A stretch of 54,768 nt of DNA from an uncultured archaeon (GTDB lineage Archaea; Aenigmatarchaeota; Aenigmatarchaeia; CG10238-14; SCSR01). Each line of letters starts with the position of its first letter. Position 1 is the first letter of the stretch. Below are positions 7,079-34,949 of this stretch, piece by piece. The notes below the pieces were generated by a model that made no database searches, was not told where the DNA came from, and was given only the letters and a program-made list of their open reading frames with translations. The translations under genes were made by a program, and so were the position numbers. The stretch lies in assembly GCA_964601215.1 (NCBI GenBank), contig CAZRMN010000002.1, positions 2,314 through 57,081 on the forward strand. The letters run 5' to 3'.

Positions 7079-7358
7079 GAAGTCGAGGGGTAAAAGAACT
7101 AAAACTAGAAAAAAGCTCAGACAAAAACCTGGTTATAGACCGCCAATAACTAAGTTTTTGCAAGAATTCAAGATAAACCAAAGAGTAGTTATAATGCCAG
7201 AACCCTCTTCCCAAAAAGGAATGCCACATCAAAGGTTCAAGGGTAGAGTAGGCAAAATAATAGGCAAGAGGGGTAAAAGTTATATTGTTGAAGTTAAAAA
7301 CGGTAATAAGGTGAAAAAGATAATTTCAAGACCAGAACACTTAAGGCGGTTTGAATGA
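7062..7358 (+). CDS. rpl21e: 50S ribosomal protein L21e
   Basis: KKSRGKRTKTRKKL, GMPHQRFKGRVG, RPEHL. Confidence 0.96.
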   Translation: MRSLVKKSRGKRTKTRKKLRQKPGYRPPITKFLQEFKINQRVVIMPEPSSQKGMPHQRFKGRVGKIIGKRGKSYIVEVKNGNKVKKIISRPEHLRRFE

Positions 7359-7681
7359 AAATAATAAAAGAAAAGTTAATAACAGATGCGGAGGCAAAGG
7401 AAATTTTAGAGAAAAAGGCTAAAAATGAAGAGTTAAAGTATGAACAAAAGAATGCTTTAGAAATTTTGAAAAAATTCGTAGAGTTTAAACCGGAAAGAAT
7501 AAAAAAGCTGGTGGAAGAACTAAAGAAAATTGAAAAATTAAGGGATAAACAAATAATTGCCATAGCTAATTCTTTGCCCGAAGATAAGGATGATTTGAGA
7601 GTAGTTTTGCATAAAGAATATACGAGCTTTACACCAGAAGAAATAGACCAAATTCTGCAGACGATAAAAAAAGTTATTTGA
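7355..7681 (+). CDS. rpoF: RNA polymerase subunit F (Rpo4)
   Basis: ELKYEQKNALE, IANSLPEDKDDLR; canonical rpl21e-rpoF-DUF655 order. Confidence 0.9.
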   Translation: MKIIKEKLITDAEAKEILEKKAKNEELKYEQKNALEILKKFVEFKPERIKKLVEELKKIEKLRDKQIIAIANSLPEDKDDLRVVLHKEYTSFTPEEIDQILQTIKKVI

Positions 7682-7696
7682 TTTTGGTGATTTTGA

Positions 7697-8245
7697 ATGA
7701 AAAAGGATGAATATGTAATAGTGTTAGATTTTCTTCCTCATGGAAAACCAAGCGACAGAAAAGCAGAACCTATAGCTCAAACTATAGGGGAGAAATATTT
7801 CAATCTTTTAGAAGTTGTTATAAAAGATGGAATAGAAGTTAAACCTAGGGAAAGGCTTTATGTGGGGGAAGAAAAAAGAGATAAGGTAAAGTACATAAGA
7901 GGAAGGATAAATTATAATGAATTGACAAATTTCGCGAAGAATGAATTAGAAGAAGTATTAAAAGAAATTATTACTAAGGATGAAAAAAGGTTTGTAAATA
8001 TCTTTAATATTGCTGGTCCTATAACAACAAGAATGCATATGCTAGAACTATTGCCGGGCGTAGGGAAAAAACATTTATGGGATATAATTAAAGAAAGGAA
8101 GAAAAAACCTTTTGAAAATTTTAAAGACTTACAGGAAAGAGTTGGAATGCTTCCTGATCCAAGAAAAATGATAATAAAAAGAATAATAAACGAACTGGAA
8201 GGAAAGGATAGACACAAGCTTTTTGTTGCTTCTGGTTTTATTTAA
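7697..8245 (+). CDS. DUF655 family putative RNA-binding protein
   Basis: VLDFLPHG, LELLPGVGKK HhH motif, PFENFKDLQERV. Confidence 0.92.
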   Translation: MKKDEYVIVLDFLPHGKPSDRKAEPIAQTIGEKYFNLLEVVIKDGIEVKPRERLYVGEEKRDKVKYIRGRINYNELTNFAKNELEEVLKEIITKDEKRFVNIFNIAGPITTRMHMLELLPGVGKKHLWDIIKERKKKPFENFKDLQERVGMLPDPRKMIIKRIINELEGKDRHKLFVASGFI

Positions 8246-8461
8246 TCATTCTTCTGAAACTTTTTTTACTGCTACAGCTACTGAAATCCATAGTAGTCCG
8301 CCTAGTAAAAAAAGCACGAAGGAAATGAGAAGTGCAAAACTAAAGCTTAAGTCGGAAACTCCTAAACCTTTTTCTAGATGTCCTGAAATCATCGAGCCGA
8401 GTAGTATACATATAGTACCCAAAACCCAAAAAGTTACGATCTTCCAGTTTTTTTTGGCCAT
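8246..8461 (-). CDS. Small two-helix membrane protein
   Basis: Two hydrophobic segments; fills the gap between genes. Confidence 0.65.
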   Translation of the reverse strand: MAKKNWKIVTFWVLGTICILLGSMISGHLEKGLGVSDLSFSFALLISFVLFLLGGLLWISVAVAVKKVSEE

Positions 8462-8491
8462 ACTCTCTACTTTTACATAAATTTTTAAAAT

Positions 8492-8749
8492 TTATAAACT
8501 TCTTGTTATTCCAGTAACTTCTACTTCTCCAACTTCTTCTATAGTTTTAAGTTTTTTTTCTAGATTTTCAAGCTCTCCTTCTGCATCTGGAATTACTTTA
8601 ACTACACGAATAGCAACTAAGCCAAAAGCTATTGGTTCGCGTTGAATTCTCTCTGGGTTTATAGCTGTTTTTATCTTTTCTTCAAGCTTGTCTAAATCTA
8701 CTTCCACAGTTTTGGGCAAAACTTTTAAACCAACTATTACTTCAGCCAT
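8492..8749 (-). CDS. ef1b: Elongation factor 1-beta (start placed at ATG 8749)
   Basis: MAEVIVGLKVLP, EPIAFGLVA, EVGEVEV. Confidence 0.93.
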   Translation of the reverse strand: MAEVIVGLKVLPKTVEVDLDKLEEKIKTAINPERIQREPIAFGLVAIRVVKVIPDAEGELENLEKKLKTIEEVGEVEVTGITRSL

Positions 8750-8750
8750 G

Positions 8751-8915
8751 TTAAGGACCTGTAAAACCACACTTTGGACAAGTATACTTATTGCTCAAAG
8801 CTTTACAAGTTGAGCATCTAACTATTAAAGCTTCTCCACAGTTAGGGCATTTAAACTTAACAAAATTGTCTTTAGCTAGTACATTTACCTTGCAAGTTAT
8901 GCACTTAAGTTGCAT
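8751..8915 (-). CDS. Conserved archaeal double Zn-ribbon small protein (DUF1610/HVO_2753-like), 54 aa
   Basis: Manual translation MQLKCITCKVNVLAKDNFVKFKCPNCGEALIVRCSTCKALSNKYTCPKCGFTGP; conserved position upstream of EF-1beta; absent from ORF track. Confidence 0.92.
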   Translation of the reverse strand: MQLKCITCKVNVLAKDNFVKFKCPNCGEALIVRCSTCKALSNKYTCPKCGFTGP

Positions 8916-8968
8916 TATTTAAGCTTAGTAATAATAATTTTTATAAGTTACGCTTAATTCTTATTACT

Positions 8969-9043
8969 GCCCTCGTAGTGTAGTCTGGATAACACGCCAC
9001 CCTGCGGAGGTGGAAATCCTGGGTTCAAATCCCAGCGAGGGCA
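8969..9043 (+). tRNA. tRNA-Arg(GCG), no intron, CCA not encoded
   Basis: GCCCTCG/CGAGGGC acceptor stem, CCACC-CTGCGGA-GGTGG anticodon arm, CTGGG-TTCAAAT-CCCAG T arm. Confidence 0.96.
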
Positions 9044-9044
9044 T

Positions 9045-9953
9045 TCAACTCTTTAACTTAACTTTCATCCCATCATAAGCTACTTTAACATTTGGAAAAA
9101 CTTTTTTTGCCTCTTCCTCTAATTCCTTTGGATTTTTATACCTTCTACTTATATGCGTTAAGATTAACTGCTTAACATTAGCTTTTTTAGCAATTTTTGC
9201 TGCTTGTTTTACATCTGCATGTGCTTTTCCCTCTTGTTCTTCAAGAAAAGTTGCATCGTGTATCAACAAATCAGCGTTCATTGAAATTTTAACTACATTC
9301 TCACAAGGTTTGGTATCTCCAGAATAAACAATTTTAAGTCCTGGTTTTAAATTTGCAACTTCTTCAATCTTAACTTCCCTTCCTTTATAAGTAGCTTTTC
9401 CATGTTTTTTCAGTTTTTTTAGCCAGTATCCTCTTCTTAATCCAAGCTTTTTTAATTTTTTAGGGTCAATGCTCCACCTATCCTTTTCTTTAAAGCAATA
9501 AGCTACTGCCGGAACTGTATGGAAAACAGGAATAGAAAAAACTTGGTATTCTTCTGTTTCATCTATCAAAGAAATTTCATTTCCTTCAAAAGGTACATTT
9601 ATAGCTTTAACAGGAAACCTACAACCGAAATATCCTAAATCTAAAATGTCCGAAACAAATTTTTCTGCTTCAGGAGCAAAAATTTTTAATTCTCTTTGTC
9701 TTTTTTCTAAGTTCATCGTTTGAATTAAAGGGATTAAACCAGCAAAATGATCAGCATGCCAATGAGTAATAAAAATCTTATCGATTTTCATAAAACTTAT
9801 TTTTGATTTCATTAATCGTAATTGAGTCCCTTCACCACAATCAAAAAGCAGGATATCTTTTTTTTCTCCAGAATATTCTAGAACTATGGCTGGATGACCC
9901 CTTTCCTTGCTAGGAATTCCTGAAACTGTACCCAAAAAGGTTATTTCTATCAT
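9045..9953 (-). CDS. rnz: Ribonuclease Z
   Basis: FLGTVSGIP, DCGEGTQ, THWHADH, YSGDT, LIHDATF, LTHISRRY. Confidence 0.96.
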   Translation of the reverse strand: MIEITFLGTVSGIPSKERGHPAIVLEYSGEKKDILLFDCGEGTQLRLMKSKISFMKIDKIFITHWHADHFAGLIPLIQTMNLEKRQRELKIFAPEAEKFVSDILDLGYFGCRFPVKAINVPFEGNEISLIDETEEYQVFSIPVFHTVPAVAYCFKEKDRWSIDPKKLKKLGLRRGYWLKKLKKHGKATYKGREVKIEEVANLKPGLKIVYSGDTKPCENVVKISMNADLLIHDATFLEEQEGKAHADVKQAAKIAKKANVKQLILTHISRRYKNPKELEEEAKKVFPNVKVAYDGMKVKLKS

Positions 9954-9998
9954 TAAATTTTAATTAAAATTAAAAACTATTAAAAGAAAGGTTTTTAA

Positions 9999-10280
9999 AT
10001 GTTTTTACCAATTTTTCTTCTTATGTCTTATGTGGATAAAATAAAAAGAATAAGAAAAGAACAGGAAAAAACTAGAAAATTGAATAGATCTGTTTATCTT
10101 CCTGAAAGACTAATCACAAAAAAAGTTTATGAAAATAATAACTTTAGAGTTGATGTATTGTGTTCACGTTTTCCTGGAATTGGGTGGCAAATAAGTTTAA
10201 ACAGTCTCAGGAAGGCTTTAGAAAAAAATGGGTATAAAGGAAAGCTGAGTAAGAAAATTTTAAAATATCTTTCAGATTAA
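9999..10280 (+). CDS. Hypothetical basic protein (start may be ATG 10023)
   Basis: Fills the gap between rnz and cca; Lys-rich composition like neighbouring genes. Confidence 0.55.
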   Translation: MFLPIFLLMSYVDKIKRIRKEQEKTRKLNRSVYLPERLITKKVYENNNFRVDVLCSRFPGIGWQISLNSLRKALEKNGYKGKLSKKILKYLSD

Positions 10281-11702
10281 ACTTTCCTTTTCAAAGTATT
10301 TTCTCAAGAATACGCCAAAATTTCTATCCTTTTTAACTATATCCATAATTTTTTCGTTCTCACAAATTATTTCAAATCCTTTAATTATTTGCTCTGCAAT
10401 ATAACCAGGTATACCTTTTGCTTTTAAAACCTCTAAGTTTTTACTTAAACTATCATAAATCTTTTCTCTTGCTGTTAAGAACTTTCTTTCAACTTCAACA
10501 CACCAATAGTTATCTTCAATAAAAGGTCCAGTTAAAGCTTGCTTTTTGTATTTTTTCAGAAACATTTCCGAATTCTTCAAGTTGAAAACTTTTGGACCAA
10601 TCCTTTTTTGAACTCTAGGAAGTTTGGAAACTTCCATCTCGAATAAAACTATTGCTAAATCTTTTTCGTTCGTATAAACATCTTTTCTTAAAACCTTAAA
10701 CTCATACTTGACTTCTTCCAGAATGTTTTGCATTCTATCTGCAAATCTTCTAAGTTGAGGCCAAAGTATGTCCGGGACGACTTTTGGTGGAGAGAATTTT
10801 ATCAAAATCAGTTCTGTTCTTCTCTTCATTTGATACAATATTAGCTCATTCTCGCTAATTGGTTCAATTTTTTTCTCGAAGAATACTTCTTCTCTTGGAT
10901 TTTCAAGGAATTCTTTCGCTACTTTCTTGAACTTGAAAAAATTATAAGCTGAAATTGCAGCAGCTGTATTCCTTTTTTTATCTGTTGGGTCAATTAAAAT
11001 GAAAACTTGGTTCCTGAACATTTTTTTAAGCTTCGAATAGTCTTTTTTCTTGTAATACTTTTTGAGGTCAACAACTTCTCCAGGTTTCCATTTTATAGCA
11101 TTCTTTAAAACGTTCAAAAATTTCTTGTATTTAATTATTAATAACTCGCACACATAGCCAGAAAATCCCTGAGTTTTTGCATCCGCACCATATATTCCAT
11201 TTGCTACGCAAAACTGTTTTAGAAGCCTTACTTCGTCAGACATTTTTTTAGTCAAGTTTTTTTCAACAAATTTCACATGAAAAGGAGTTCTATCAACTGC
11301 AGACTTAATTTTTTCTGGGGTTTCTACTTTAAAACACGGCACTATATCAACCCCTACTCCTCCAACATCTCCTCTGACATAAGGATGTTGGGCATATTCA
11401 ATTCTATACTTACCCTTCAACTTTTCGATAACTTCCTTTCCTATTTCTAACCCATACTTTTCAAGCTTTTCTTCTGAAAGTTTTGGGGAGAATAAGACAA
11501 AAACATCAAATTCAAGCTTTCTCGGCAGCCATGTATCTCTAGTAATACTACCAGCAAGGATAGCTTCGGCCTTATACTTCCTAGCTTCTTTTTTAGTAAT
11601 TTCCAGGGTTTTTTTAGCCAGATTTTTAAGTTTTTTCTCAGTTTTTTTATCTGGTTTAATCCTTTTTAAAACTTTGATTAAAATTTTTTTATAATTAGCC
11701 AT
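10272..11702 (-). CDS. cca: Archaeal class I CCA-adding enzyme
   Basis: AGSITRDTWL..EFDVF, YAQHPYV, VDIVPCF, SAVDRTPFH, GFSGYVCELL. Confidence 0.96.
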   Translation of the reverse strand: MANYKKILIKVLKRIKPDKKTEKKLKNLAKKTLEITKKEARKYKAEAILAGSITRDTWLPRKLEFDVFVLFSPKLSEEKLEKYGLEIGKEVIEKLKGKYRIEYAQHPYVRGDVGGVGVDIVPCFKVETPEKIKSAVDRTPFHVKFVEKNLTKKMSDEVRLLKQFCVANGIYGADAKTQGFSGYVCELLIIKYKKFLNVLKNAIKWKPGEVVDLKKYYKKKDYSKLKKMFRNQVFILIDPTDKKRNTAAAISAYNFFKFKKVAKEFLENPREEVFFEKKIEPISENELILYQMKRRTELILIKFSPPKVVPDILWPQLRRFADRMQNILEEVKYEFKVLRKDVYTNEKDLAIVLFEMEVSKLPRVQKRIGPKVFNLKNSEMFLKKYKKQALTGPFIEDNYWCVEVERKFLTAREKIYDSLSKNLEVLKAKGIPGYIAEQIIKGFEIICENEKIMDIVKKDRNFGVFLRKYFEKESLI

Positions 11703-11723
11703 ATTCCATTTTAGTCTTTCTAA

Positions 11724-13289
11724 TCAAATAAATTTTGAAACATAAGGGCCTTCAAGTTTATAACCAAGTTTATAGTAATACTCTCTTACTCCAACTCCAC
11801 TAATTATTAAAATTTTATTCTTATCAAACTCTTCTTTAGAAATCCTTTCTGCTTCTTCTAACAGCTTCCTTCCAAATCCTTTATGTTGGAACGCTTCTTC
11901 TTTGAATTCACCTACTGGCACTAAAGGCCCATAAACATGGAGCTCCCTGATTAAAGCTGTTTTATGCGTTATTTCTTTTCTAAAAGGTTTGAAAGGAATT
12001 CTTAACCTTAAAAAGGCTATGAGAACATCATTTTTTATATCCTCAAAACTTAGGAATATTTCTCTTCCCCTAGAAGCATTATAATCAAGTCTACAAAGCT
12101 TTACATGCTTGAAATCTACTTTTACTCCTTTCATAGCTTTATGACCAACTTCCCTGTATCTTATTTCTTTTATCCTTATTCCCATTTTTTCTGCCCTTCT
12201 TTCCACGATTTCCCTCAGGTTTCCTTTTTTAACTCCTGCAACTATTTGATTTGCTGGTATATCCCTTTGAACTCTTATTATTCTGCAATATTTTGGTATG
12301 TATTCCATAGCTTTAGCTATAAGTTCAGCAGCTTTTTCTTCTGTCAAAGCTTTATACTCACCCCTTTTCCACATCTCATAGAGTTGTGTACCTTTTATCA
12401 CAAGCGTCGGATAAATTTTTAAAGAATCTGGTCTAAAATCTTCATTTTCAAACAAAATTTTAAATTGTTTCAAATCACTTTCAAAGTCAACGCCTGGCAA
12501 ACCAGGCATAATATGATAAGTGCATTTTAAGCATGAATCCTTCAAAAATTGCGTGGCTTTTTTAACCTCTTCTATAGTATGGATTCTATTTACTCTTTTT
12601 AACACTTCTGGATAAACTGATTGAACACCTATTTCTACTCTAGTAGTTCCTAGCTGAAGCATTTGATTTATGTGCTTTTGAAAGCAATAGTCTGGTCTTG
12701 TCTCTATTGTTAAGCCAGAACATCTTATTCTAGCTTTTTCGTTTAGTTTTAAAGCTTCTTCCAAGTTTTTTCCGTCTCTTCCGTTTAAAGCATCAAAAAG
12801 CCTTTTAACAAACCACTCTTGATACTCTTTTTCTAAAGCGTTAAAAGTTCCACCTATTATTATTAATTCAACCTTGTCAACTGGGTGACCCATTAGTTTG
12901 TACTGTCTAATTCTATCTTTTACTTGCAAAAATGGATCATAATTATTCCTTATCGCTCTTTGAACTGCAGGCTCTAAACCAGTGTAGCTTTGTGGTGCTT
13001 TTTCGCCTTTTGGACAATAAATGCATTTGCCAGGACATTTTGCAGGTTTTGCTACAACAGTAATTACTGTCACACCTGAAATTGTTCTAGTAGGTTTCAT
13101 CAAAAGAAACTCTTTGAGCTTTTCTTTTTCTTTTGAGCTGCAAGCTTGGAGAATCTGAACACTCGTTGGCATGCTTTTTAGCTTGTATTTCTTACAAATC
13201 CTTTTAACTATTCTCCAGACCTTTTTTCTAGTAAGTTTTTCTTTCTTCAACTCCTCAACAATTTCCCTGAGTATTTTTCTTTTTTCCAT
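11724..13289 (-). CDS. elp3: Elp3 tRNA uridine(34) acetyltransferase (radical SAM + GNAT)
   Basis: CPGKCIYCP, IGGTF, ETRPD, RELHVYG, QHKGFG..LL, GVGVREYY. Confidence 0.96.
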   Translation of the reverse strand: MEKRKILREIVEELKKEKLTRKKVWRIVKRICKKYKLKSMPTSVQILQACSSKEKEKLKEFLLMKPTRTISGVTVITVVAKPAKCPGKCIYCPKGEKAPQSYTGLEPAVQRAIRNNYDPFLQVKDRIRQYKLMGHPVDKVELIIIGGTFNALEKEYQEWFVKRLFDALNGRDGKNLEEALKLNEKARIRCSGLTIETRPDYCFQKHINQMLQLGTTRVEIGVQSVYPEVLKRVNRIHTIEEVKKATQFLKDSCLKCTYHIMPGLPGVDFESDLKQFKILFENEDFRPDSLKIYPTLVIKGTQLYEMWKRGEYKALTEEKAAELIAKAMEYIPKYCRIIRVQRDIPANQIVAGVKKGNLREIVERRAEKMGIRIKEIRYREVGHKAMKGVKVDFKHVKLCRLDYNASRGREIFLSFEDIKNDVLIAFLRLRIPFKPFRKEITHKTALIRELHVYGPLVPVGEFKEEAFQHKGFGRKLLEEAERISKEEFDKNKILIISGVGVREYYYKLGYKLEGPYVSKFI

Positions 13290-13714: not shown

Positions 13715-14707
13715 ATGGAAATTTTAAAACAAACTAAAGAAAGGTATAAGATTTTAAACACTCCAGAAATACAAGCTTTAGCAAAAATAGAATCCTCCTT
13801 GCTAAAGGGTGCAAGAAAATATTGCGAAGAAAACGGATTTGTGGAAATAATTGCGCCACATTTAACAAAAGCTACTGGTGCATGCGAAAACATTGCAACT
13901 ATGTTTGAGCTAAATTATTTTGGACAGAAAGCATACCTTAGCCAAACAGGACAGCTATACTTAGAAATAATGACACCTTTTTTGAAAAAAGTTTGGTGTT
14001 TAATTCATAGTTGTAGAGCAGAACCAGAAGTTGATAACAGACATCTGACAGAATTCCCTTTAATAGAAATAGAATTCGAAGGAAATTTAAAAGAACTAAT
14101 GCATCACATCGAAGGAATTATTCATTCTATGGTGAGTAAAGTTAAAAAAAGGGAGGAAGAACTTGAAGTTTTTGGGATTGACAAACAATACTTAAAAAAA
14201 TTTGAACCACCTTACAAAAGGATTACCTATACACAAGCAATAGAAATATTAAAGGACGAGTTTCAGATAGAGTGGGGAGATGATATTAAAAGTAAGCATG
14301 AAAAATACCTTTCAAAGTTTTTGGGTATGAAACCATTCTTTTTGACACACTGGCCAAAAGCAATAAAATTTTTTAACATGAGGGAAAACGATGACAACCC
14401 AGATATAGTAAATAGTTGTGACCTAATCCTGCCGTTTAGTGGAGAAGCAGTTGGGGGAGCAGAAAGAGAATACAAATATGAAAAACTGAAAAGAAGACTT
14501 GAAGAATCGCTAATGTTAAAAATGCTGGTTGAAAGAGGTGGAAGTATAAAAGATTTTGAATGGTATCTCGACTTCCACAAGAACAATAGCATAAACTTAC
14601 ATTCAGGTTGTGGTATTGGTTTCAACAGAGTAACTCAATCGATTCTAAAACTAGATGATATAAGAGCGTCAACAGTTTTTCCTTTAAACAAAGAAATGAT
14701 AATGTAA
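13715..14707 (+). CDS. Archaeal asparagine synthetase / AsnRS2-like (class IIb aaRS catalytic core without anticodon-binding domain)
   Basis: YLSQTGQLYLE, RAEPEVDNRHLTEF (motif 2), EAVGGAERE, HSGCGIGFNR (motif 3); 330 aa with no N-terminal OB fold. Confidence 0.8.
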   Translation: MEILKQTKERYKILNTPEIQALAKIESSLLKGARKYCEENGFVEIIAPHLTKATGACENIATMFELNYFGQKAYLSQTGQLYLEIMTPFLKKVWCLIHSCRAEPEVDNRHLTEFPLIEIEFEGNLKELMHHIEGIIHSMVSKVKKREEELEVFGIDKQYLKKFEPPYKRITYTQAIEILKDEFQIEWGDDIKSKHEKYLSKFLGMKPFFLTHWPKAIKFFNMRENDDNPDIVNSCDLILPFSGEAVGGAEREYKYEKLKRRLEESLMLKMLVERGGSIKDFEWYLDFHKNNSINLHSGCGIGFNRVTQSILKLDDIRASTVFPLNKEMIM

Positions 14708-15692: not shown

Positions 15693-16179
15693 TAAAAGAA
15701 AGGAGCTAATAGTAAAGAAAATTGAAAATGGAACAGTAATAGACCATATACCAAAGGGTAAGGGTATAGTGGTTATGAGAATTTTAAGAGTAGATTGCAA
15801 CACAGAATGCTATCTTTTGCAAAATGTTGAGAGTAAAAAATTGGGCAGGAAAGATATAGTCAAAATAGTTGGAAGATATCCAAGCAAAGAAGAGGTAGAT
15901 GATATTGCAATAGTTGCACCTACAGCCACCATAAATTATGTTAAAAATTGGGGAATTTTTGATAAGTATAGAGTTAAACTACCAGAAAAAATAGAAGGTT
16001 TAATTAAGTGTCCAAACAACTTATGCATAACTAATCATGAAAGAGGTATGAAAACTGTTTTTAAAGTTTATCAATTCAAGAATGAGCTACTAAAAAATTT
16101 GTATGGAGACGTTTTACTTCAATGTTCTTATTGTGATACTTTAGTAAAGCATGAAAATATAGAGGAACTTTTGATATAG
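15685..16179 (+). CDS. pyrI: Aspartate carbamoyltransferase regulatory subunit
   Basis: KIENGTVIDHI, KDIVKI, APTATIN, CPNNLCIT...CSYC zinc site. Confidence 0.95.
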   Translation: MNDKRKELIVKKIENGTVIDHIPKGKGIVVMRILRVDCNTECYLLQNVESKKLGRKDIVKIVGRYPSKEEVDDIAIVAPTATINYVKNWGIFDKYRVKLPEKIEGLIKCPNNLCITNHERGMKTVFKVYQFKNELLKNLYGDVLLQCSYCDTLVKHENIEELLI

Positions 16180-16265
16180 CCCCGCCCGGATTCGAACCGG
16201 GGTCGCGAGGTCCAGAGCCTCGCATGCTTGACCATTCTGCTCCTGAAGATCTACACCACGGGGCT
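16177..16265 (-). tRNA. tRNA-Gln(CTG) with a 16-nt D-loop insertion (putative intron 15/16)
   Basis: AGCCCCG/CGGGGCT acceptor stem, CGAGG-CTCTGGA-CCTCG, CCCGG-TTCGAAT-CCGGG; extra ATCTTCAGGAGCAGAA between G15 and T16. Confidence 0.92.
16235..16250 (-). other. Putative non-canonical tRNA intron at 15/16
   Basis: Removal restores an ordinary AG-TGGTCAA D-loop; length fits BHB geometry (1 + 9-nt hairpin + 4 + 2) with 3 of 4 central pairs. Confidence 0.75.
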
Positions 16266-16403: not shown

Positions 16404-18260
16404 ATGAGAATACTTCAGTTGCACTCAGATTTTATTGAATATGAACTAATAAAAAAAGAAATCCCTCAAGCAGAGGAAAAAAAGAAAAAGAAAGAGAAAT
16501 TTGAAAACATACTTGTTTTGTTTACTTGTGTAGAAAAAGGCGATAATAAAAAAACTGCTAAAAAAGCTATTGAAGAAACAAAAAATTTTCTCAAAAAATT
16601 AAAACTAAATAGAATTTTAATTTATCCCTTTGCTCATTTAAGTCCAAACTTAGCTAAACCCCAAGATGCTCTAGAAATTATAAAAAAAATGGAAAAGTGT
16701 GCAAAAAAACTTAAAATTGAAGCTTATCGTGCCCCATTTGGTTGGAATAAAGCTTTACAAATTAAAGTGAAAGGCCATCCTTTAGCCGAGCAATTGAGAA
16801 CGATAACTTCAGAAGGAAAAGAAGAAAAAATTTCAAAAGCTTTGAAAGCAGAGAAAAAAATAAAATCTTATTGGTACATATTAACTCCAGAAGAAAAACT
16901 AATACCAGTTGAAAAATTTGACTTTTCTAGGTTTATAAACTTAAAAAAATTTGCTGATTATGAAATATCTAAGGTTAGAGCGGTTCAACAAATTCCTCCT
17001 CATGTTACATTAATGAAAAAGCTGGAAATAGCGGATTATGAACCTGGTTCAGACCCAGGAAACATGAGATGGTACCCAAAAGGTAGACTAATTAAATCCT
17101 TGCTCGAAGAGTTTGTCACCAAAAAAGTTATTGACTATGGAGGAATGGAAGTTGAAACTCCTGTGATGTACGATTTCCAACATCCTGTTTTAGAAAGTTA
17201 TTTGAACAGATTCCCAGCAAGACAATATGTAGTGAAATCGGATAAAAAAGAATACTTCTTGAGGTTTTCAGCATGTTTTGGTCAATTTTTAATGGCACAT
17301 GACACAAAGATTTCTTACAAGCAACTACCTTTCAGAATTTATGAACTTACAAGATATAGCTTCAGAAGAGAAAAAAGTGGGGAACTTGTTGGATTAAGAA
17401 GATTAAGAGCTTTTACTATGCCTGATGTTCATGCTATTTGTGCTGATTTAAAGCAAGCTATGGAAGAATTCAAAAGAAGATTCGACCTTTGTGTAGAGGT
17501 ATTAAAGGGGATTGGTTTAGAGAAAAAAGATTATGAACTAGCAATAAGAGTTACAAAAGATTTTTATGAAAAACACAAAGAATTTGTTTTTTCCCTGGTC
17601 AAAAAACATGGAAAGCCAGCTTTGGTTGAAATGTGGGATGAAAAATTCTTCTATTTCATCCTTAAGTGGGAGTTCAACTTTGTGGATAATTTGAATAAAG
17701 CTTCTGCTCTTTCTACAGATCAGATTGATGTAGAAAATGGAAAAAGATATGGAATAACTTATGTTGATAGGAATGGAAAGAAGCATTACCCAATTATTTT
17801 ACATTGTTCGCCAAGTGGTGCAATAGAAAGATGTATATATGCAATACTAGAAAAAGCTTATGCTGATAAGAAAAAGGGTAAAGTACCTCATTTTCCTTTA
17901 TGGTTATCACCGACCCAAGTTAGATTAATTCCTCTTTCCGACGAATACATAAAAAAATGTGAAGAAATAGCAAAGGAATTGGAAGAAAAAAGAATAAGAG
18001 TTGATATAGACGATAGGAAAGAAACTGTGGAAAAAAGGATAAGGGAAGCTGAAATTGAATGGGTTCCTTACATTTGTATAATAGGAAAAAAAGAAGTTGA
18101 AAAAAACATTTTATCAGTAAGAATAAGGGAAGAAAAGAAAATAAAAGAAATGAGTGTTGAAGAGCTTGTTAAAACCATAAGTGAAAAAACAAAAGATAAA
18201 CCATTCAAAAAACTATCCTTACCTAAAAAAATCTCTGAAAGACCTGTTTTTGTTGGTTAA
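16404..18260 (+). CDS. thrS: Threonyl-tRNA synthetase, archaeal type with N-terminal editing domain
   Basis: MRILQLHSDFIEY, RAPFGWNKA, LRFSACFGQF, LRRLRAFTMPDVH, LHCSPSGAIER. Confidence 0.97.
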   Translation: MRILQLHSDFIEYELIKKEIPQAEEKKKKKEKFENILVLFTCVEKGDNKKTAKKAIEETKNFLKKLKLNRILIYPFAHLSPNLAKPQDALEIIKKMEKCAKKLKIEAYRAPFGWNKALQIKVKGHPLAEQLRTITSEGKEEKISKALKAEKKIKSYWYILTPEEKLIPVEKFDFSRFINLKKFADYEISKVRAVQQIPPHVTLMKKLEIADYEPGSDPGNMRWYPKGRLIKSLLEEFVTKKVIDYGGMEVETPVMYDFQHPVLESYLNRFPARQYVVKSDKKEYFLRFSACFGQFLMAHDTKISYKQLPFRIYELTRYSFRREKSGELVGLRRLRAFTMPDVHAICADLKQAMEEFKRRFDLCVEVLKGIGLEKKDYELAIRVTKDFYEKHKEFVFSLVKKHGKPALVEMWDEKFFYFILKWEFNFVDNLNKASALSTDQIDVENGKRYGITYVDRNGKKHYPIILHCSPSGAIERCIYAILEKAYADKKKGKVPHFPLWLSPTQVRLIPLSDEYIKKCEEIAKELEEKRIRVDIDDRKETVEKRIREAEIEWVPYICIIGKKEVEKNILSVRIREEKKIKEMSVEELVKTISEKTKDKPFKKLSLPKKISERPVFVG

Positions 18261-19183: not shown

Positions 19184-21913
19184 CTATCCCCTCTTGCCTT
19201 GAGATTTATACAATTCTCTAACTCTTTGAATAGTATCTGCCTCGCTAGGCCCTTTATCATCCCTTATCCTCACTAATCGAGGAAACCTTAAAGCAAAACC
19301 AGATTCATAGTTTGGAGATTTTTGAATTTCTTGATAAGCTACCTCTACTACAACCTTTGGTTTGATTTTAACTTCTCTTCCCCTTTCCTCTTCTATTAAT
19401 TTTTTAAGAATTTTTGTCATATTTTCGAATTGCTCTTCTGTTAAACCTGTACCCATCATACCACAAGGCAAAAATTTTCCTGTATCAGGGTCTCTGCAAG
19501 CTAGAACATAAGAGCTAAGCCAGTTTGCTCTAGAACCAACACCCCATGTTGCACCAACTATAACCAGATCTAAAGTTTCCATTATTGGTTTAATTTTGTA
19601 CATTGTACCAACATGCCTCCCAAAAACATAAGGAGAATCCAAAACCTTGAGCATGAGCCCTTCTTGATTTTCCTTTAAAGCTTGTTGATAAAACTTTTCA
19701 AGTTTTTTCACATCACCAGTAATTATTTGTTTTGCTAACTCAAACTTTCCAGGAATTACTTTAATTGTTCTTTCCAAAATCTTCCTTCTTTCCCTGAAAG
19801 GTTTGTCAAAAAGTTCTTTTCCTTCCAGGTAAACTATGTCGAAGAGATGAATTTGAATGGGTATTTCTTTTACCATTTTTTCAATATCATATTTCCTATG
19901 AATTCTTTGGGACAAAACTTGGAATGGTAAGGGGGAACCAGTTTTTGGGTCTATTCCAAGAACTTCCCCTTCTACTATGCATTCTTTTGCTTTAATTCCT
20001 TTTTTACATAGCTCAACTAAGTCAGGAAATTGTTTTGTAACATTTTCTTGTCTTCTTGTAAAAAGCCAGATTTTATCTCCTTTTTTATGAATTTGGCAAT
20101 TATGCATAGCTAGCATGGTTGTACAATAGCTCTGATCATCCTCGACCTCTAAATTATAAAAATTCGACCTAGGATCAGGATACTTTACTTCTTTTTTCCT
20201 TAAAATCTTAACGAATACTTTATTTCCAACTATTCTTGCATAAGTATTACTTTTTGGCAGAATTAACTTGTAATAAGTTCTTCCTTTTACCCTTATTTTC
20301 TTTATACCTATTATCTTTCTATGTTTAAGTGCAAGAAATTGAACCATCATTGCAATAGTTTTTTCTTTTGTAGTAATAGTAACAGTACCATTTTTGTCCG
20401 TACTACCGTCAGCTTCGACCAAACCTTGCAAAAATTCCAAAAACCTTTTTTTATCAAGGCCTATAAACCATTCAGGAAGAGTCTTACCCTTCCATCCTCT
20501 TCTCTTATGTCTAAAATTATGAGAAAGCCAAATCATAAAAGGTTTATCAGTCCAGTAGATATCAATAGCTCCAGGGTAGTTATAATTAGAAATATTTTTT
20601 ATTCCAAATTCTTTTCTTATGATTCTTTTATACTTTTCACAAAGTTTTTTTTCAGTTTTTTTATTAAATTGAAGACCTATTCTAAAATTTCCATTAAAAG
20701 TATTTGTATAACCATCACCTATCCAAAAACCCAGAAATCTGAAAAAATTCTTATTTAGGGTAAACTCCTTTTTGTATCCATCTCTTGTGGTAAGAACCAT
20801 CTTTTGTGGTATATTTTTAGAACTAATTTTTGGGATCGGAAACACTACTTCAGCACTCTTAGGAACTTTTTCAACAGGTACCCATCTTGGTTTCCCGTCT
20901 AAATTAATTAAAATCTCGTGCCCTTCTGTAATTTTGAATTCGTTTCCGAGATAAGTAGAAATTTTAAAAACTCTTTCTCCTTTTCTTTTTTTTCTTTTTA
21001 GTTTTGCCACTACTTTTTTAAATCTACCAGTATGTGTAAGAACATAATCATTAACTTTCACATCTTTTACAGAAATTAAACCCTTATTCTTGACATATAT
21101 AGGTGTTAGCCCAGAAATGCACCTAACACCATCGTATTTGAATTCGGCAGCAACCTTCCCAAATTCATCCACAACTTCTTTAATATTTTCAGCTTTTTCT
21201 CCTAGCATTACTTGAATAGGCCTACCAAGCTGGACTTTAACTTTTTTTAATCCTTTTATCCCTTCCTCTTTTGCTATTCTTGCAATTTCACCAAAATCGG
21301 AGAGAATGTTCCAAGCATACTCTACAACTCGAGTTATTTTCTCTTTCTCTTTTTTGTCCATTCCTTCTTTCAACAAAAATGCTTTTATTATCGCATCTCT
21401 TATAATTCCTTCTGCCACCCCCACTCTTAGTTCCCCAAGAATGGTTCTAGTTATATATCTTGCCTCTTTTGGTTTTGCTGAAATAAGTAATTGAACGATT
21501 AAATCTAGCTTTTTGTCCTGAGAACCAACCCCAGTTATAAAAGGCAATTTTTGTAAATTCTTAAAAACTAAGTCTACTGTTAACTTCTTCTTCACAAGAG
21601 GTATTTGTTTTCTTGATTTAACACATTCCTCTGCTGTTAACCCCAAATCTCCAGTTTTTTTGAATATTTCTTCTACTTTTGCGGTACTAAAACCTGCAGC
21701 TTTAGAAATTGCTCTTATCATCATTTGCGTAGCAATCCCTAATTCATAGCCTAAAAATTTGGGGAATACTACTCCTTGGACTAATAATACAACTTTTGGT
21801 AGGTCTTCTGTTGGTGTTTTTTTGAGTAAATTTGCAAGAATATTAGTTTTTTCAATTTTACCAGTTATCTTTTCCAATTTTTCATAAGTTTCTGCTAAGA
21901 TCGAATAATCCAT
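19184..21913 (-). CDS. lig: ATP-dependent DNA ligase precursor with intein (about 568 aa after splicing)
   Basis: EFKYDGVR, then after the intein CQIH, IVEGE, FDIVY, EGLMLK, YKIK, DLVIVG, LRFPR. Confidence 0.97.
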   Translation of the reverse strand: MDYSILAETYEKLEKITGKIEKTNILANLLKKTPTEDLPKVVLLVQGVVFPKFLGYELGIATQMMIRAISKAAGFSTAKVEEIFKKTGDLGLTAEECVKSRKQIPLVKKKLTVDLVFKNLQKLPFITGVGSQDKKLDLIVQLLISAKPKEARYITRTILGELRVGVAEGIIRDAIIKAFLLKEGMDKKEKEKITRVVEYAWNILSDFGEIARIAKEEGIKGLKKVKVQLGRPIQVMLGEKAENIKEVVDEFGKVAAEFKYDGVRCISGLTPIYVKNKGLISVKDVKVNDYVLTHTGRFKKVVAKLKRKKRKGERVFKISTYLGNEFKITEGHEILINLDGKPRWVPVEKVPKSAEVVFPIPKISSKNIPQKMVLTTRDGYKKEFTLNKNFFRFLGFWIGDGYTNTFNGNFRIGLQFNKKTEKKLCEKYKRIIRKEFGIKNISNYNYPGAIDIYWTDKPFMIWLSHNFRHKRRGWKGKTLPEWFIGLDKKRFLEFLQGLVEADGSTDKNGTVTITTKEKTIAMMVQFLALKHRKIIGIKKIRVKGRTYYKLILPKSNTYARIVGNKVFVKILRKKEVKYPDPRSNFYNLEVEDDQSYCTTMLAMHNCQIHKKGDKIWLFTRRQENVTKQFPDLVELCKKGIKAKECIVEGEVLGIDPKTGSPLPFQVLSQRIHRKYDIEKMVKEIPIQIHLFDIVYLEGKELFDKPFRERRKILERTIKVIPGKFELAKQIITGDVKKLEKFYQQALKENQEGLMLKVLDSPYVFGRHVGTMYKIKPIMETLDLVIVGATWGVGSRANWLSSYVLACRDPDTGKFLPCGMMGTGLTEEQFENMTKILKKLIEEERGREVKIKPKVVVEVAYQEIQKSPNYESGFALRFPRLVRIRDDKGPSEADTIQRVRELYKSQGKRG
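20099..21121 (-). mobile_element. 341-aa intein with LAGLIDADG homing endonuclease
   Basis: Block A CISGLTPIYV, block B ITEGH, LGFWIGDG and LQGLVEADG, block F FYNLEVEDDQSY, terminal HN followed by Cys+1. Confidence 0.95.
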
Positions 21914-24378: not shown

Positions 24379-24492
24379 CCCCGCTTAGCTCAACGGTAGA
24401 GCGACCGGCTGTAGATAAGTGCTTTGGCACTTGTTGGTAGCCATCGCTCAGCACATACCGGTAGGTTGGGAGTTCAAATCTCCCAGCGGGGA
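24379..24492 (+). tRNA. tRNA-Tyr(GTA) with a 42-nt intron at 37/38 (24415-24456)
   Basis: C1-G72 acceptor CCCCGCT/AGCGGGG, ACCGG-CTGTAG[intron]A-CCGGT, GGGAG-TTCAAAT-CTCCC. Confidence 0.95.
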
Positions 24493-24533
24493 CTTAACGT
24501 TAAGTTTAAAAAAGCTTGAACCAATTAATAAAT

Positions 24534-24653: not shown

Positions 24654-24702
24654 TTCATTTTTTTAAATTTTTAAGATGTATGGAATAAAATATTATAAGA
24701 AT

Positions 24703-24796
24703 GCCTCGGTCGTCTAGGGGCCTAGGATGCAGGCCTGTCACGCCTGAGATGGAAAACCATCGGCGAACGACACGGGTTCAAATCCCGTCCGAGGCG
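24703..24796 (+). tRNA. tRNA-Asp(GTC) with a 21-nt intron at 43/44
   Basis: GCCTCGG/CCGAGGC plus G73, CAGGC-CTGTCAC-GCCTG, ACGGG-TTCAAAT-CCCGT; 25 nt in place of the 4-nt variable region. Confidence 0.94.
24747..24767 (+). other. Non-canonical tRNA intron at 43/44 with BHB-like motif
   Basis: Central helix CGCC/GGCG, bulges TG^A and AA^C, intron hairpin GATGG-AAAA-CCATC; excision leaves CGAC. Confidence 0.88.
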
Positions 24797-24917
24797 TTTA
24801 GAAAAGCGTTAAGTTTAAAAATACTCAAATACTTATATAGGAATATTAACCATCGAGGGATGGTGGAAAAATTTAGAAATTGTTTCTCTAGTAGAAGGGC
24901 TTTTTTCCGGTGGTAGA

Positions 24918-33791: not shown

Positions 33792-34949
33792 TCAAATTGT
33801 AATTACCTCTGTCTCTTTTAAAGCATCTTTAACAAGCTTTTTAATTTTAAGATTTTTCTCAAGAGTTTTTATTTTTTTAGGGTCTGATTTAGTTGCAGGA
33901 TGCTTTGGAACAAACAAACTGCAACAGTCTTCTTGAGGTTTTATTGAAATACCATAAGTCCCTATTTTTTTAGCCAAGTCAATTATTTCAACTTTATCCA
34001 TTCCCAAAAGAGGTCTAAAAACTTGCAATTTTGTAGCTTCAGCAATAGTTGTAATATTATCTAAAGTTTGCGAAGAAACTTGAGCAAGGTTCTCTCCTGT
34101 TACTAAAGCTTTTATTCCTTCTTTTTTCGCAATTTCTTCAGAAATTCTAAGCATGAATCTTCTGTAGACGATTATCCTATACTTTGCAGGAATTTTTGTT
34201 TTGACTTGAGTTTGAATTTTATGAAAAGGAATGAAATAAACTTTGCTTTTAAACTGAAATTGGTTTAAAACTTTTACTAACTCTTTCGTTTTTTCAATAC
34301 TTGCTTTAGAAACTAAAGGGAAAGAATGGAAGTGAACAAAAACAACTTTACAACCACGCTTCATCATTAGCCAAGCTGCAACAGGAGAGTCTATCCCACC
34401 TGAAATTAAGGATAAAACTTTTCCAGAAGTACTTACAGGTAAACCACCAAGTCCTTTAATTATTTCAGTATAAACATAAGTATCTTTTCCTCTGACCTCA
34501 ACAAAAATTTCTTTGTCAGGATTTTTAAGGTTAACTTTCCTTTTCACCACACTTCCAAGAACGCTTGCTAATTCCTGACTAGTATACTTATGTTCACCAA
34601 CTCTTTTCACTCTAACAGCAAAAGTTTCATTTTTCTTTATCCATTTTTCATAGTTTTTTTCGATAAAACTTTTAATTCTTTCTAATTTTGAAGTTTTTAA
34701 ATGAAATGCTGGAGAAAAAGAAACAATACCAAAAATTTTTTTTAAAATTTCACAAGATTCTTCTAAATCCCAAACTTTAAGAAAAATTCTTCCTCTTTCT
34801 CTTTTTATTTTTACTTTTATGTTTTTTAGCCTGAAAGCTCTTTTGATATTTTCAACAAGTTTTTTTTCATACATTTTTGCGACAAACTCTGACTTAAGAA
34901 ATATCTCGCCATATCTTACAAGAATTAATCTTTCAAGCATAAAACCCAC
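33792..34949 (-). CDS. thiI: tRNA 4-thiouridine synthase ThiI (THUMP + PP-loop, no rhodanese domain)
   Basis: RYGEIFLKS, GGLPVSTSG, SGGIDSPVA, GENLAQVSSQT, EDCC. Confidence 0.95.
   Translation of the reverse strand: MGFMLERLILVRYGEIFLKSEFVAKMYEKKLVENIKRAFRLKNIKVKIKRERGRIFLKVWDLEESCEILKKIFGIVSFSPAFHLKTSKLERIKSFIEKNYEKWIKKNETFAVRVKRVGEHKYTSQELASVLGSVVKRKVNLKNPDKEIFVEVRGKDTYVYTEIIKGLGGLPVSTSGKVLSLISGGIDSPVAAWLMMKRGCKVVFVHFHSFPLVSKASIEKTKELVKVLNQFQFKSKVYFIPFHKIQTQVKTKIPAKYRIIVYRRFMLRISEEIAKKEGIKALVTGENLAQVSSQTLDNITTIAEATKLQVFRPLLGMDKVEIIDLAKKIGTYGISIKPQEDCCSLFVPKHPATKSDPKKIKTLEKNLKIKKLVKDALKETEVITI

What the first reader, a model, noticed from the sequence alone, without database searches (positions are those of the whole stretch)
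24703..24796. tRNA-Asp(GTC) with a 21-nt intron at the anticodon-stem/variable-loop junction (43/44)
Seen: a near-textbook BHB built by refolding the anticodon arm. C38-C41 (CGCC) pairs perfectly with intron GGCG, bulges are TG^A and AA^C, the intron hairpin is GATGG/CCATC, and TGTC (including the anticodon) pairs with exon-2 GACA with A37 extruded. Excision restores the usual CGAC variable region. Known: this is a rare non-canonical position. Without recognising the intron the gene looks like a tRNA-Asp with an impossible long variable arm.
Basis: partly seen in the sequence, partly recalled or inferred. Interest (0 to 1): 0.7.

Follow-up and report, generated by a model that had tools for sequence, protein, structure and literature searches.

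The report
Unusually placed intron in tRNA-Asp
The tRNA-Asp gene of this hydrothermal-vent DPANN archaeon (Aenigmatarchaeota) carries a 21-base protein-spliced intron just after the anticodon stem. This is a real and well-formed example of a known kind of archaeal tRNA intron at an uncommon position, not a new kind of element.

Summary
Window 24703-24796 (+) is a tRNA-Asp(GUC) gene with 21 extra bases (24747-24767) between G43 and C44.

- No shuffle of the 21 bases (0 of 20,000) gives a comparable motif.
- Every other excision that leaves a valid tRNA scores far lower (5 against 13).
- The window belongs to Candidatus Aenigmatarchaeota, and the gene is syntenic (upstream of rpoH-rpoB) in 65 related genomes.
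- 18 of those orthologs are intron-free, 72-73 nt, with a 4-nt NGAC variable loop. This matches the predicted spliced product.
- The same 43/44 geometry recurs in four other tRNA-Asp genes, with the central helix co-varying with the exon (CGCC/GGCG, CGGC/GUCG, CUCC/GGAG).
- Strain variants change only the top of the intron hairpin.

No RNA data exist, and no EndA or RtcB gene lies in the window, so splicing itself is inferred. Non-canonical BHB introns are well known, including in DPANN, so this is a new member of a known kind. The added value is that this orthologous locus shows many intron positions across the phylum.

The parts
24703..24796 (+). tRNA-Asp(GUC) gene: 94 nt as encoded, 73 nt after splicing, discriminator G73, no encoded CCA
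   Evidence: ARAGORN; Rfam tRNA 50.9 bits; syntenic orthologs
24703..24746 (+). Exon 1 (tRNA positions 1-43: acceptor 5' strand, D arm, whole anticodon arm)
   Evidence: BHB scanner; an intron-free relative in run X4 matches up to G43 and then continues TGACCCGGGTTC
24747..24767 (+). 21-nt intron AGAUGGAAAACCAUCGGCGAA, inserted between G43 and C44
   Evidence: absent from 18 orthologs; unique in the window and in all fetched loci
24768..24796 (+). Exon 2 (positions 44-73: variable loop CGAC, T arm, acceptor 3' strand, G73)
24741..24744 (+). Central BHB helix, 5' strand: C38 G39 C40 C41 (exon)
   Evidence: pairs 4/4 with 24762-24765; co-varies in L113, L122 and L135
24762..24765 (+). Central BHB helix, 3' strand: GGCG (intron)
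24745..24747 (+). 5' splice-site bulge U42 G43 | A; predicted cut after 24746
   Evidence: the cut site follows the BHB rule of cleavage after the second bulge nucleotide (established knowledge, PMC4090602)
24766..24768 (+). 3' splice-site bulge A A | C44; predicted cut after 24767
24748..24761 (+). Intron hairpin GAUGG-AAAA-CCAUC (the helix on the intron side of the BHB)
   Evidence: strain variants in runs X3 and X5 change only its top (G24752A, C24757A, A24759G turning U-A into U-G, and one extra A in the loop)
24736..24740 (+). Outer helix, 5' strand: U33 G34 U35 C36 (includes the anticodon), followed by unpaired A37
   Evidence: 4 bp once one nucleotide is bulged; the same in all five 43/44 genes
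24769..24772 (+). Outer helix, 3' strand: G45 A46 C48 A49 (variable loop GAC plus the first T-stem base)

Best explanation
This is a functional tRNA-Asp(GUC) gene interrupted by a 21-nt archaeal, protein-spliced BHB intron between positions 43 and 44.

Proposed mechanism:
1. In the precursor, the 3' strand of the anticodon stem (with C38) lets go of its normal partner and pairs with GGCG at the intron's 3' end. This forms the 4-bp central helix.
2. The intron's own hairpin forms one flanking helix. The anticodon GUC pairs with the variable-loop GAC to form the other, with A37 left out.
3. This places UG|A and AA|C as two 3-nt bulges, 4 bp apart on opposite strands. That is the substrate of the archaeal splicing endonuclease EndA.
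4. EndA cuts after G43 and after the last intron A.
5. An RtcB-type ligase joins the exons to give ...CACGCCUG-CGAC-ACGGG..., a 73-nt tRNA with a normal anticodon stem and a 4-nt variable loop. CCA is added afterwards.

What is shown: the gene, the motif, its statistical and comparative support, and the intron-free orthologs. What is inferred: cleavage, ligation and the enzymes involved.
For: - **Motif:** present in the unconstrained MFE fold. No shuffle of 20,000 reaches it. The next-best excision that leaves a valid tRNA scores 5 against 13.
- **Accessible conformer:** the BHB conformer and the ordinary cloverleaf-plus-hairpin conformer are isoenergetic, -34.9 against -34.8 kcal/mol.
- **Host:** an archaeon of the phylum Aenigmatarchaeota, with RpoB'' 66-86% identical to 80 MAG loci.
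- **Intron-free orthologs:** the gene sits at the same place upstream of rpoB in 65 relatives. 18 of these are intron-free, 72-73 nt, with an NGAC variable loop.
- **Recurrence with covariation:** the same 43/44 geometry occurs in L024, L113, L122 and L135. The central helix follows the exon sequence: CGCC/GGCG twice, CGGC/GUCG twice, CUCC/GGAG once.
- **Empty-site allele:** L013 has the same exons as L122 apart from one D-loop base and lacks the insert. It scores 64.4 bits on the Rfam tRNA model, against 52.9 for L122.
- **Strain variation:** differences in near-identical strains fall only in the top of the intron hairpin. The exons, bulges and central helix are unchanged.
- **Other disrupted tRNAs in the window:** tRNA-Tyr (42 nt at 37/38) and tRNA-Gln (16 nt in the D loop) also carry introns, so this genome must splice such introns.
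- **Processing genes:** tRNase Z and a CCA-adding enzyme are encoded in the window.
- **Literature:** BHB introns occur at many non-canonical positions (PMC4090602). DPANN lineages with loop-bearing EndA have many disrupted tRNA genes (PMC5829648).
Against: - No transcript evidence: no RNA run holds this organism.
- No EndA or RtcB gene lies in the 54.8-kb window (Pfam), and the EndA type of this lineage was not determined.
- The motif is not a textbook strict hBHBh'. A37 lies unpaired opposite the 3' bulge, so the 3' site sits in a 1x3 internal loop rather than a clean bulge.
- Forming the motif requires melting the anticodon stem.
- Only 5 examples of 43/44 were found, and two central-helix pairs never vary, so covariation support is modest.
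- I could not check whether the genome also has a second, intron-free tRNA-Asp gene.
Confidence: 0.87

Rival explanations
1. It is a BHB-type intron, but the cuts fall at 44/45, 45/46 or 46/48, as in most relatives with an intron in this region. The mature variable loop would then be AGAC instead of CGAC.
For: The bases GA follow both the intron's first base (A-GA) and C44 of exon 2 (C-GA), so three shifted excisions all give AGAC, a loop seen in intron-free orthologs such as L063, L023 and L025. 45/46 is the commoner position in this gene family, 16 distinct sequences against 5, and it is the one named in reviews (PMC4090602).
Against: For a 45/46 cut in the window, only 2 of 4 central-helix pairs form, by my hand check on the sequence. 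The best alternative excision scores 5 against 13. In true 45/46 genes the intron's 3' end is complementary to positions 40-43. Here it is complementary to 38-41.
Confidence: 0.07
2. The 21 nt are not removed. The tRNA carries a long, class II-like variable arm (hairpin GAUGG/CCAUC).
For: ARAGORN reports the gene as one uninterrupted 96-nt tRNA. The insert contains a 5-bp hairpin where a variable arm would sit.
Against: - The variable region would be 25 nt with a 10-nt unpaired tail, longer than any class II arm (established knowledge of tRNA classes).
- 18 orthologs have a 4-nt loop. Relatives with inserts have them at different positions and with unrelated sequences.
- The insert's 3' end is exactly complementary to the exon, as a BHB requires.
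- The Rfam tRNA score drops by about 10 bits in insert-bearing genes compared with intron-free orthologs.
Confidence: 0.03
3. It is a decaying or non-functional tRNA-Asp copy, or an assembly artefact, and the apparent BHB has no function.
For: Only one 54.8-kb window is available, so a second tRNA-Asp gene cannot be excluded.
Against: - The sequence is identical in four independent assemblies.
- All four stems and the tRNA-Asp hallmarks (G73, GUC, C38, G10-U25) are intact, as read.
- The gene occupies the conserved syntenic slot of the phylum's tRNA-Asp gene.
- Variation among strains spares the exons and the splice motif.
Confidence: 0.03

Closest known systems
Non-canonical BHB tRNA introns of Crenarchaeota/Thermoproteales, for example at 45/46 (Marck & Grosjean 2003; Sugahara 2008; reviewed in PMC4090602)
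   Same: A short intron outside the anticodon loop. Its splice sites lie in two 3-nt bulges separated by a 4-bp helix built from an exon strand and the intron's 3' end. Presence is patchy among close relatives, and several introns can occur in one gene.
   Different: The position is 43/44, two bases upstream of the usual variable-region site, so the central helix uses C38-C41 and the anticodon stem must open. The host is a DPANN archaeon. The outer helix is formed by the tRNA's own anticodon (GUC) pairing with its variable loop (GAC), with A37 bulged.
45/46 introns in orthologous Aenigmatarchaeota tRNA-Asp genes (L016, L032, L034, L035, L039, L046, L061 and others; found here)
   Same: Same gene, same phylum, same layout: an A, then a small hairpin, then a 4-nt complement of the exon, then AA or AU. 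Lengths are similar, 15-22 nt.
   Different: The register is shifted by 2 nt, so the central helix uses positions 40-43. The outer helix is only 1-2 bp, a relaxed HBh'-like motif. The window's 43/44 intron has both bulges and a 3-4 bp outer helix. There is no sequence similarity beyond what the motif dictates.
Thaumarchaeota-type non-canonical tRNA introns (a separate BHB model in tRNAscan-SE 2.0, PMC8450103)
   Same: tRNA-Asp genes in soil metagenomes carry a BHB intron in the same region, after C48. These made up 56 of 119 distinct sequences.
   Different: They differ in position (48/49), have longer GC-rich introns with hairpins of 5-10 bp, and come from a different lineage.
Disrupted tRNA genes of ARMAN-2 / Micrarchaeota and other DPANN with broad-specificity EndA (PMC3239211, PMC5829648)
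   Same: A DPANN host with many tRNA genes carrying introns at non-canonical positions. Three of the four tRNA genes in this window are interrupted.
   Different: The EndA type of this organism is unknown. Those papers do not mention Aenigmatarchaeota introns or the 43/44 site in the text I searched.
Class II tRNA long variable arm
   Same: [quoted passage not shown]
   Different: It is not conserved among orthologs, it is too long with a long unpaired tail, it occurs in an isoacceptor that is never class II, and it carries a BHB signature.

Membership tests
Archaeal EndA-spliced (BHB) tRNA intron | Two 3-nt bulges on opposite strands, separated by a 4-bp helix, at the exon-intron boundaries | tested here: met
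   UG|A and AA|C with CGCC/GGCG 4/4; present in the MFE fold and found by the scanner; 0 of 20,000 shuffles reach it
Archaeal EndA-spliced (BHB) tRNA intron | Flanking helices of at least 2 bp on both sides (strict hBHBh') | tested here: inconclusive
   The intron-side helix is 5 bp. The exon-side helix is 3-4 bp but is offset by unpaired A37, so the 3' site lies in a 1x3 internal loop. This is close to strict but not textbook.
Archaeal EndA-spliced (BHB) tRNA intron | Excision at the bulges restores a canonical cloverleaf tRNA | tested here: met
   The 73-nt product has a 5-bp anticodon stem and a CGAC variable loop, like the intron-free orthologs. An intron-free ortholog with the same exons apart from one D-loop base scores 11.5 bits higher on the Rfam tRNA model (L013 against L122).
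Archaeal EndA-spliced (BHB) tRNA intron | Motif conserved, with the intron strand co-varying with the exon strand, in related genes | tested here: met
   Five 43/44 genes: CGCC/GGCG twice, CGGC/GUCG twice, CUCC/GGAG once. Two of the four pairs vary and stay paired. The sample is small.
Archaeal EndA-spliced (BHB) tRNA intron | Host is an archaeon that encodes EndA and an RtcB-type ligase | not tested
   The host is archaeal (Aenigmatarchaeota). No EndA or RtcB gene lies in the window, and the rest of the genome is not available here.
Archaeal EndA-spliced (BHB) tRNA intron | The intron is actually removed from the transcript | not testable with these tools
   No RNA run could be listed for this organism
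Class II tRNA (long variable arm) | The arm is conserved across orthologs of the isoacceptor; 13-21 nt; Leu, Ser, Sec or bacterial Tyr | tested here: not met
   The isoacceptor is Asp. 18 orthologs have a 4-nt loop, and inserts elsewhere differ in site and sequence. The region here would be 25 nt.
Canonical (37/38) tRNA intron | Insertion one base 3' of the anticodon | tested here: not met
   The anticodon loop CUGUCAC is uninterrupted, and the insert follows G43

The most novel reading that the evidence does not exclude
The conserved tRNA-Asp locus upstream of rpoH-rpoB in Aenigmatarchaeota is a hot spot of ongoing BHB-intron gain, loss or relocation. 48 of 66 orthologs carry one or more inserts, some apparently three, spread over roughly 8 or more regions of the gene. 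The 43/44 site arises repeatedly in tRNA-Asp in particular, because this tRNA's anticodon GUC is complementary to its own variable-loop GAC. That gives a ready-made outer helix for a BHB whose central helix is C38-C41. If so, the locus is a natural series for working out how BHB introns move and what the DPANN endonuclease tolerates.
Probability: 0.35. Interest if true: 0.55.

Novelty: new member of a known kind. Interest (0 to 1): 0.3.

Why it matters
For annotation: without recognising the intron, the gene looks like a tRNA with an impossible variable arm. ARAGORN mislabels many of its intron-bearing orthologs as Met, Ala, Thr, Pro or SeC, and Rfam misses the window's tRNA-Gln entirely. In small DPANN genomes such errors create false "missing tRNA" gaps.

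For biology: the case adds a well-supported BHB intron at a little-documented position. It also shows that a single orthologous tRNA gene across one DPANN phylum samples many intron positions. That is useful material for studying intron mobility and the substrate range of DPANN splicing endonucleases. It does not change what is known about how such introns work.

Tried and rejected
- **Transcript evidence:** two searches for RNA runs, one with the tRNA gene and one with the EF-2/EF-1alpha region, listed nothing.
- **Splicing enzymes:** Pfam scans of about 49 ORFs found no EndA or RtcB in the window.
- **Literature on 43/44:** the search tools cannot take '/', and the '43 44' query returned only noise. 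Marck & Grosjean 2003 is not held. Reviews name 45/46 and other sites but not 43/44 in their text. Rarity is therefore judged only from my own sample.
- **Other copies of the intron, as a sign of transposition:** none in the window or in the 200 loci held at the time.
- **Intron sliding between 43/44 and 45/46:** rejected as a simple explanation. The intron's 3' strand matches positions 38-41, not 40-43, and nothing beyond the motif's layout is shared.
- **43/44 introns in other isoacceptors:** the fetched loci contain too few other tRNAs to tell.
- **Metagenome scan:** The count of 43/44 cases is therefore a lower bound, and the frequencies are not population estimates.

Full report
**What is there.** ARAGORN calls a tRNA-Asp(GTC) gene at 24702-24797. 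The Rfam tRNA model matches 24703-24796 at 50.9 bits, with all four arms aligned and a ~22-nt insertion directly after the 3' strand of the anticodon stem. The gene reads as follows:
- acceptor GCCUCGG/CCGAGGC with discriminator G73
- D stem GUCU/GGAU, including G10-U25
- anticodon stem CAGGC/GCCUG
- anticodon loop CUGUCAC
- T arm ACGGG-UUCAAAU-CCCGU

No CCA is encoded. Between G43 (24746) and the T stem lie 25 nt, where tRNA-Asp normally has 4.

**The motif.** The unconstrained minimum-free-energy fold of the 94 nt is -44 kcal/mol, z = -3.98, and no shuffle of 200 is as stable.
- G34-C36 paired with GAC (24769-24771); the fourth outer-helix pair, U33-A49, is added by the scanner, since A49 also belongs to the T stem
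- A37 unpaired
- C38-C41 paired with GGCG (24762-24765)
- two 3-nt bulges, UGA and AAC
- the hairpin GAUGG-AAAA-CCAUC

I wrote a scanner for the geometry "outer helix - 3-nt bulge - 4-bp helix - 3-nt bulge - helix". It ranks exon 1 ending at gene position 44 (G43) with a 21-nt intron (24747-24767) first, at score 13. The next excision that still leaves intact anticodon and T stems scores 5. I shuffled the 21 nt 20,000 times and allowed any valid excision. No shuffle reached 13 (maximum 11), and only 8 had a perfect central helix plus an intron helix of at least 3 bp. With the acceptor, D and T arms kept, the BHB conformer and the ordinary anticodon-stem-plus-hairpin conformer are isoenergetic: -34.9 against -34.8 kcal/mol at 37 C, and similar at 60 and 80 C. 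The splicing-competent fold is therefore accessible. The spliced product is 73 nt with the variable loop CGAC.

**Whose gene it is.** Downstream lie rpoH, a split rpoB (B'' and B'), rpoA' and rpoA''. Upstream are a 5S rRNA gene and a tRNA-Tyr gene. RpoB'' finds 80 loci in the species-representative genome collection, at 66-86% identity. Nearly all are labelled Candidatus Aenigmatarchaeota. DNA runs that hold the stretch are hydrothermal-vent and sediment metagenomes.

**Orthologs.** A tRNA-Asp(GUC) gene lies in the same place upstream of rpoB'' in 65 of the 80 loci. Eighteen of these are uninterrupted, 72-73 nt, with a 4-nt variable loop NGAC (CGAC, UGAC, AGAC or GGAC). That is the product predicted for the window. 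The other 48 carry one or more inserts, some apparently three: in the D loop, the D stem/26 region, 29/30, 37/38, 38/39, 43/44, 45/46 and the T arm. The positions from the plain alignment are approximate.

L024 has a 17-nt insert with the same design as the window: CGCC/GGCG, bulges UG|A and AA|U. A metagenome scan anchored only on exon sequence added L113 and L122, which are also Aenigmatarchaeota and syntenic, with RpoB'' 81-82% identical. It also added L135, whose lineage is unknown. All five have a 4/4 central helix made of positions 38-41, two 3-nt bulges, and the UGUC/GACA outer helix with A37 out. The intron strand follows the exon: CGCC/GGCG twice, CGGC/GUCG twice, CUCC/GGAG once. Four of the five local MFE folds reproduce the motif on their own.

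L013 has the same exons as L122 apart from one D-loop base but no insert, and scores 64.4 against 52.9 bits on the Rfam tRNA model. In general, intron-free orthologs score 61-64 bits and interrupted ones 51-57.

**Strain-level variation.** Contigs of runs X3 and X5, which differ from the window at scattered positions across the 601-nt stretch, differ inside the gene only at the top of the intron hairpin. The changes are G24752A, C24757A, A24759G (which turns a U-A pair into U-G) and one extra A in the loop. The exons, both bulges and the central helix are untouched. A contig in run X4 matches the 5' part up to G43 and then continues TGACCCGGGTTC, so it is an intron-free relative. Run X1 also holds the L024-type gene. 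The window's gene is identical in four independent assemblies.

**Which splice site.** The bases GA follow both the intron's first base (A-GA) and C44 of exon 2 (C-GA), so cuts at 44/45, 45/46 or 46/48 would all give AGAC, which is also a loop seen in orthologs. Most relatives with an intron in this region do use 45/46: 16 distinct sequences, with the central helix made of positions 40-43 and bulges NG|A and AA|A or AU|A. In the window, however, the intron's 3' strand is complementary to 38-41 and not to 40-43. By my hand check on the sequence, a 45/46 register forms only 2 of 4 central pairs, and the best alternative excision scores 5 against 13. I therefore hold 43/44, with a CGAC product, as clearly the best reading. 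The shifted site is a minor rival.

**Mechanism.** From established knowledge of archaeal tRNA splicing (PMC4090602, PMC5829648), EndA recognises the two bulges spaced by the 4-bp helix and cuts after the second nucleotide of each. RtcB joins the exons, and the intron is released, often as a circle. The substrate is shown here; the reaction is inferred.

The motif is nearly but not fully strict, because A37 lies unpaired opposite the 3' bulge. The same genome has at least one clearly relaxed case, the tRNA-Gln D-loop intron, with 3 of 4 central pairs and no outer helix. This suggests an endonuclease with broad specificity, as reported for DPANN lineages whose alpha4 EndA carries an extra loop (PMC5829648). 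I could not test this: no EndA or RtcB gene lies in the window, and no RNA data exist.

**Comparison with what is known, and novelty.** Non-canonical BHB introns are a well-described class. Reviews list 20/21, 22/23, 25/26, 29/30, 30/31, 45/46, 53/54, 56/57, 59/60 "etc." (PMC4090602). tRNAscan-SE 2.0 searches for them by default and counted 673 in 217 archaeal genomes (PMC8450103). DPANN genomes are known to have many disrupted tRNA genes (PMC5829648, PMC3239211). I found no open text that names 43/44 or that describes tRNA introns in Aenigmatarchaeota, but I could not see the figures or the primary surveys.

The finding is a new member of a known kind. Two points go slightly beyond the single gene:
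- One orthologous locus shows many intron positions across the phylum.
- The 43/44 motif uses the complementarity between anticodon GUC and variable-loop GAC, which is specific to tRNA-Asp. That could explain why this site recurs in this tRNA. This is an inference, not a tested claim.

**Verdict.** Interest is moderate to low (0.3). Confidence that this is a BHB intron removed at 43/44 is about 0.87.

Noticed in passing
window 24379-24492 (+): tRNA-Tyr(GUA) carries 42 extra nt at 37/38 (24415-24456). The BHB for the whole 42 nt is poor (3 of 4 central pairs, 1-bp intron helix). A perfect hBHBh' exists for the inner 28 nt (24415-24442: bulges AG|A and CC|A, central helix CUGU/GUAG). That would leave a 14-nt piece at 37/38, which looks like two adjacent or nested introns needing sequential splicing. 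An intron of 41-43 nt with the same layout, and a segment complementary to the D-stem 3' strand (UYGCUC), is conserved in about 40 Aenigmatarchaeota orthologs.
   Followed up: partly
window 16177-16265 (-): ARAGORN's 74-nt 'tRNA-Gln(ctg)' is really an 89-nt tRNA-Gln(CUG) gene with a 16-nt intron (AUCUUCAGGAGCAGAA) in the D loop at about 15/16. Its motif is relaxed: 3 of 4 central pairs with the D-stem 5' strand, bulges AG|A and AA|U, no outer helix. Rfam's tRNA model misses the gene even at E = 0.05. Three of the four tRNA genes in the window are therefore interrupted.
   Followed up: partly
L001-L080 (tRNA-Asp upstream of rpoB''): ARAGORN labels many intron-bearing tRNA-Asp orthologs as tRNA-Met, Ala, Thr, Pro, SeC or '???'. 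This is a practical annotation hazard for DPANN MAGs.
   Followed up: partly
window 24498-24512 and 24807-24821 (+): An exact 15-nt direct repeat, CGTTAAGTTTAAAAA, follows tRNA-Tyr and tRNA-Asp. The first copy lies 24-38 nt upstream of the 5S rRNA gene and the second about 100 nt upstream of rpoH. It looks like a reused archaeal BRE/TATA promoter element. There are 2 matches against 0.1 expected by chance.
   Followed up: partly
window 19184-21913 (-): ATP-dependent DNA ligase (909 aa) interrupted by an intein with a LAGLIDADG homing-endonuclease domain (Pfam Intein_splicing and LAGLIDADG_3).
   Followed up: no
window 13715-14707 (+): A 330-aa class II aaRS catalytic core (Pfam tRNA-synt_2, the Asp/Lys/Asn type) with no N-terminal anticodon-binding domain. 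It could be an AsnA-like or AspRS paralog, or a split synthetase.
   Followed up: no
window 5783-13289 and 33792-34949: Several tRNA maturation genes cluster in the window: Pus10 (5783-7078), tRNase Z (9045-9953, -), CCA-adding enzyme (10272-11702, -), Elp3-like radical SAM (11724-13289, -) and ThiI (33792-34949, -). ThrRS with the archaeal editing domain lies at 16404-18260.
   Followed up: no
L122 1733-2976: In this Aenigmatarchaeota metagenome contig, Rfam places the 5S rRNA gene on the strand opposite to the flanking tRNA-Tyr and tRNA-Asp genes. In the window and the other loci all three are co-oriented.
   Followed up: no
L081-L200 (soil metagenome contigs): Most hits of the exon-anchored scan are GC-rich, probably Thaumarchaeota-like tRNA-Asp genes. 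They carry a 24-30-nt BHB intron after C48 and one or two further introns in the 5' half, giving genes up to 193 nt.
   Followed up: partly
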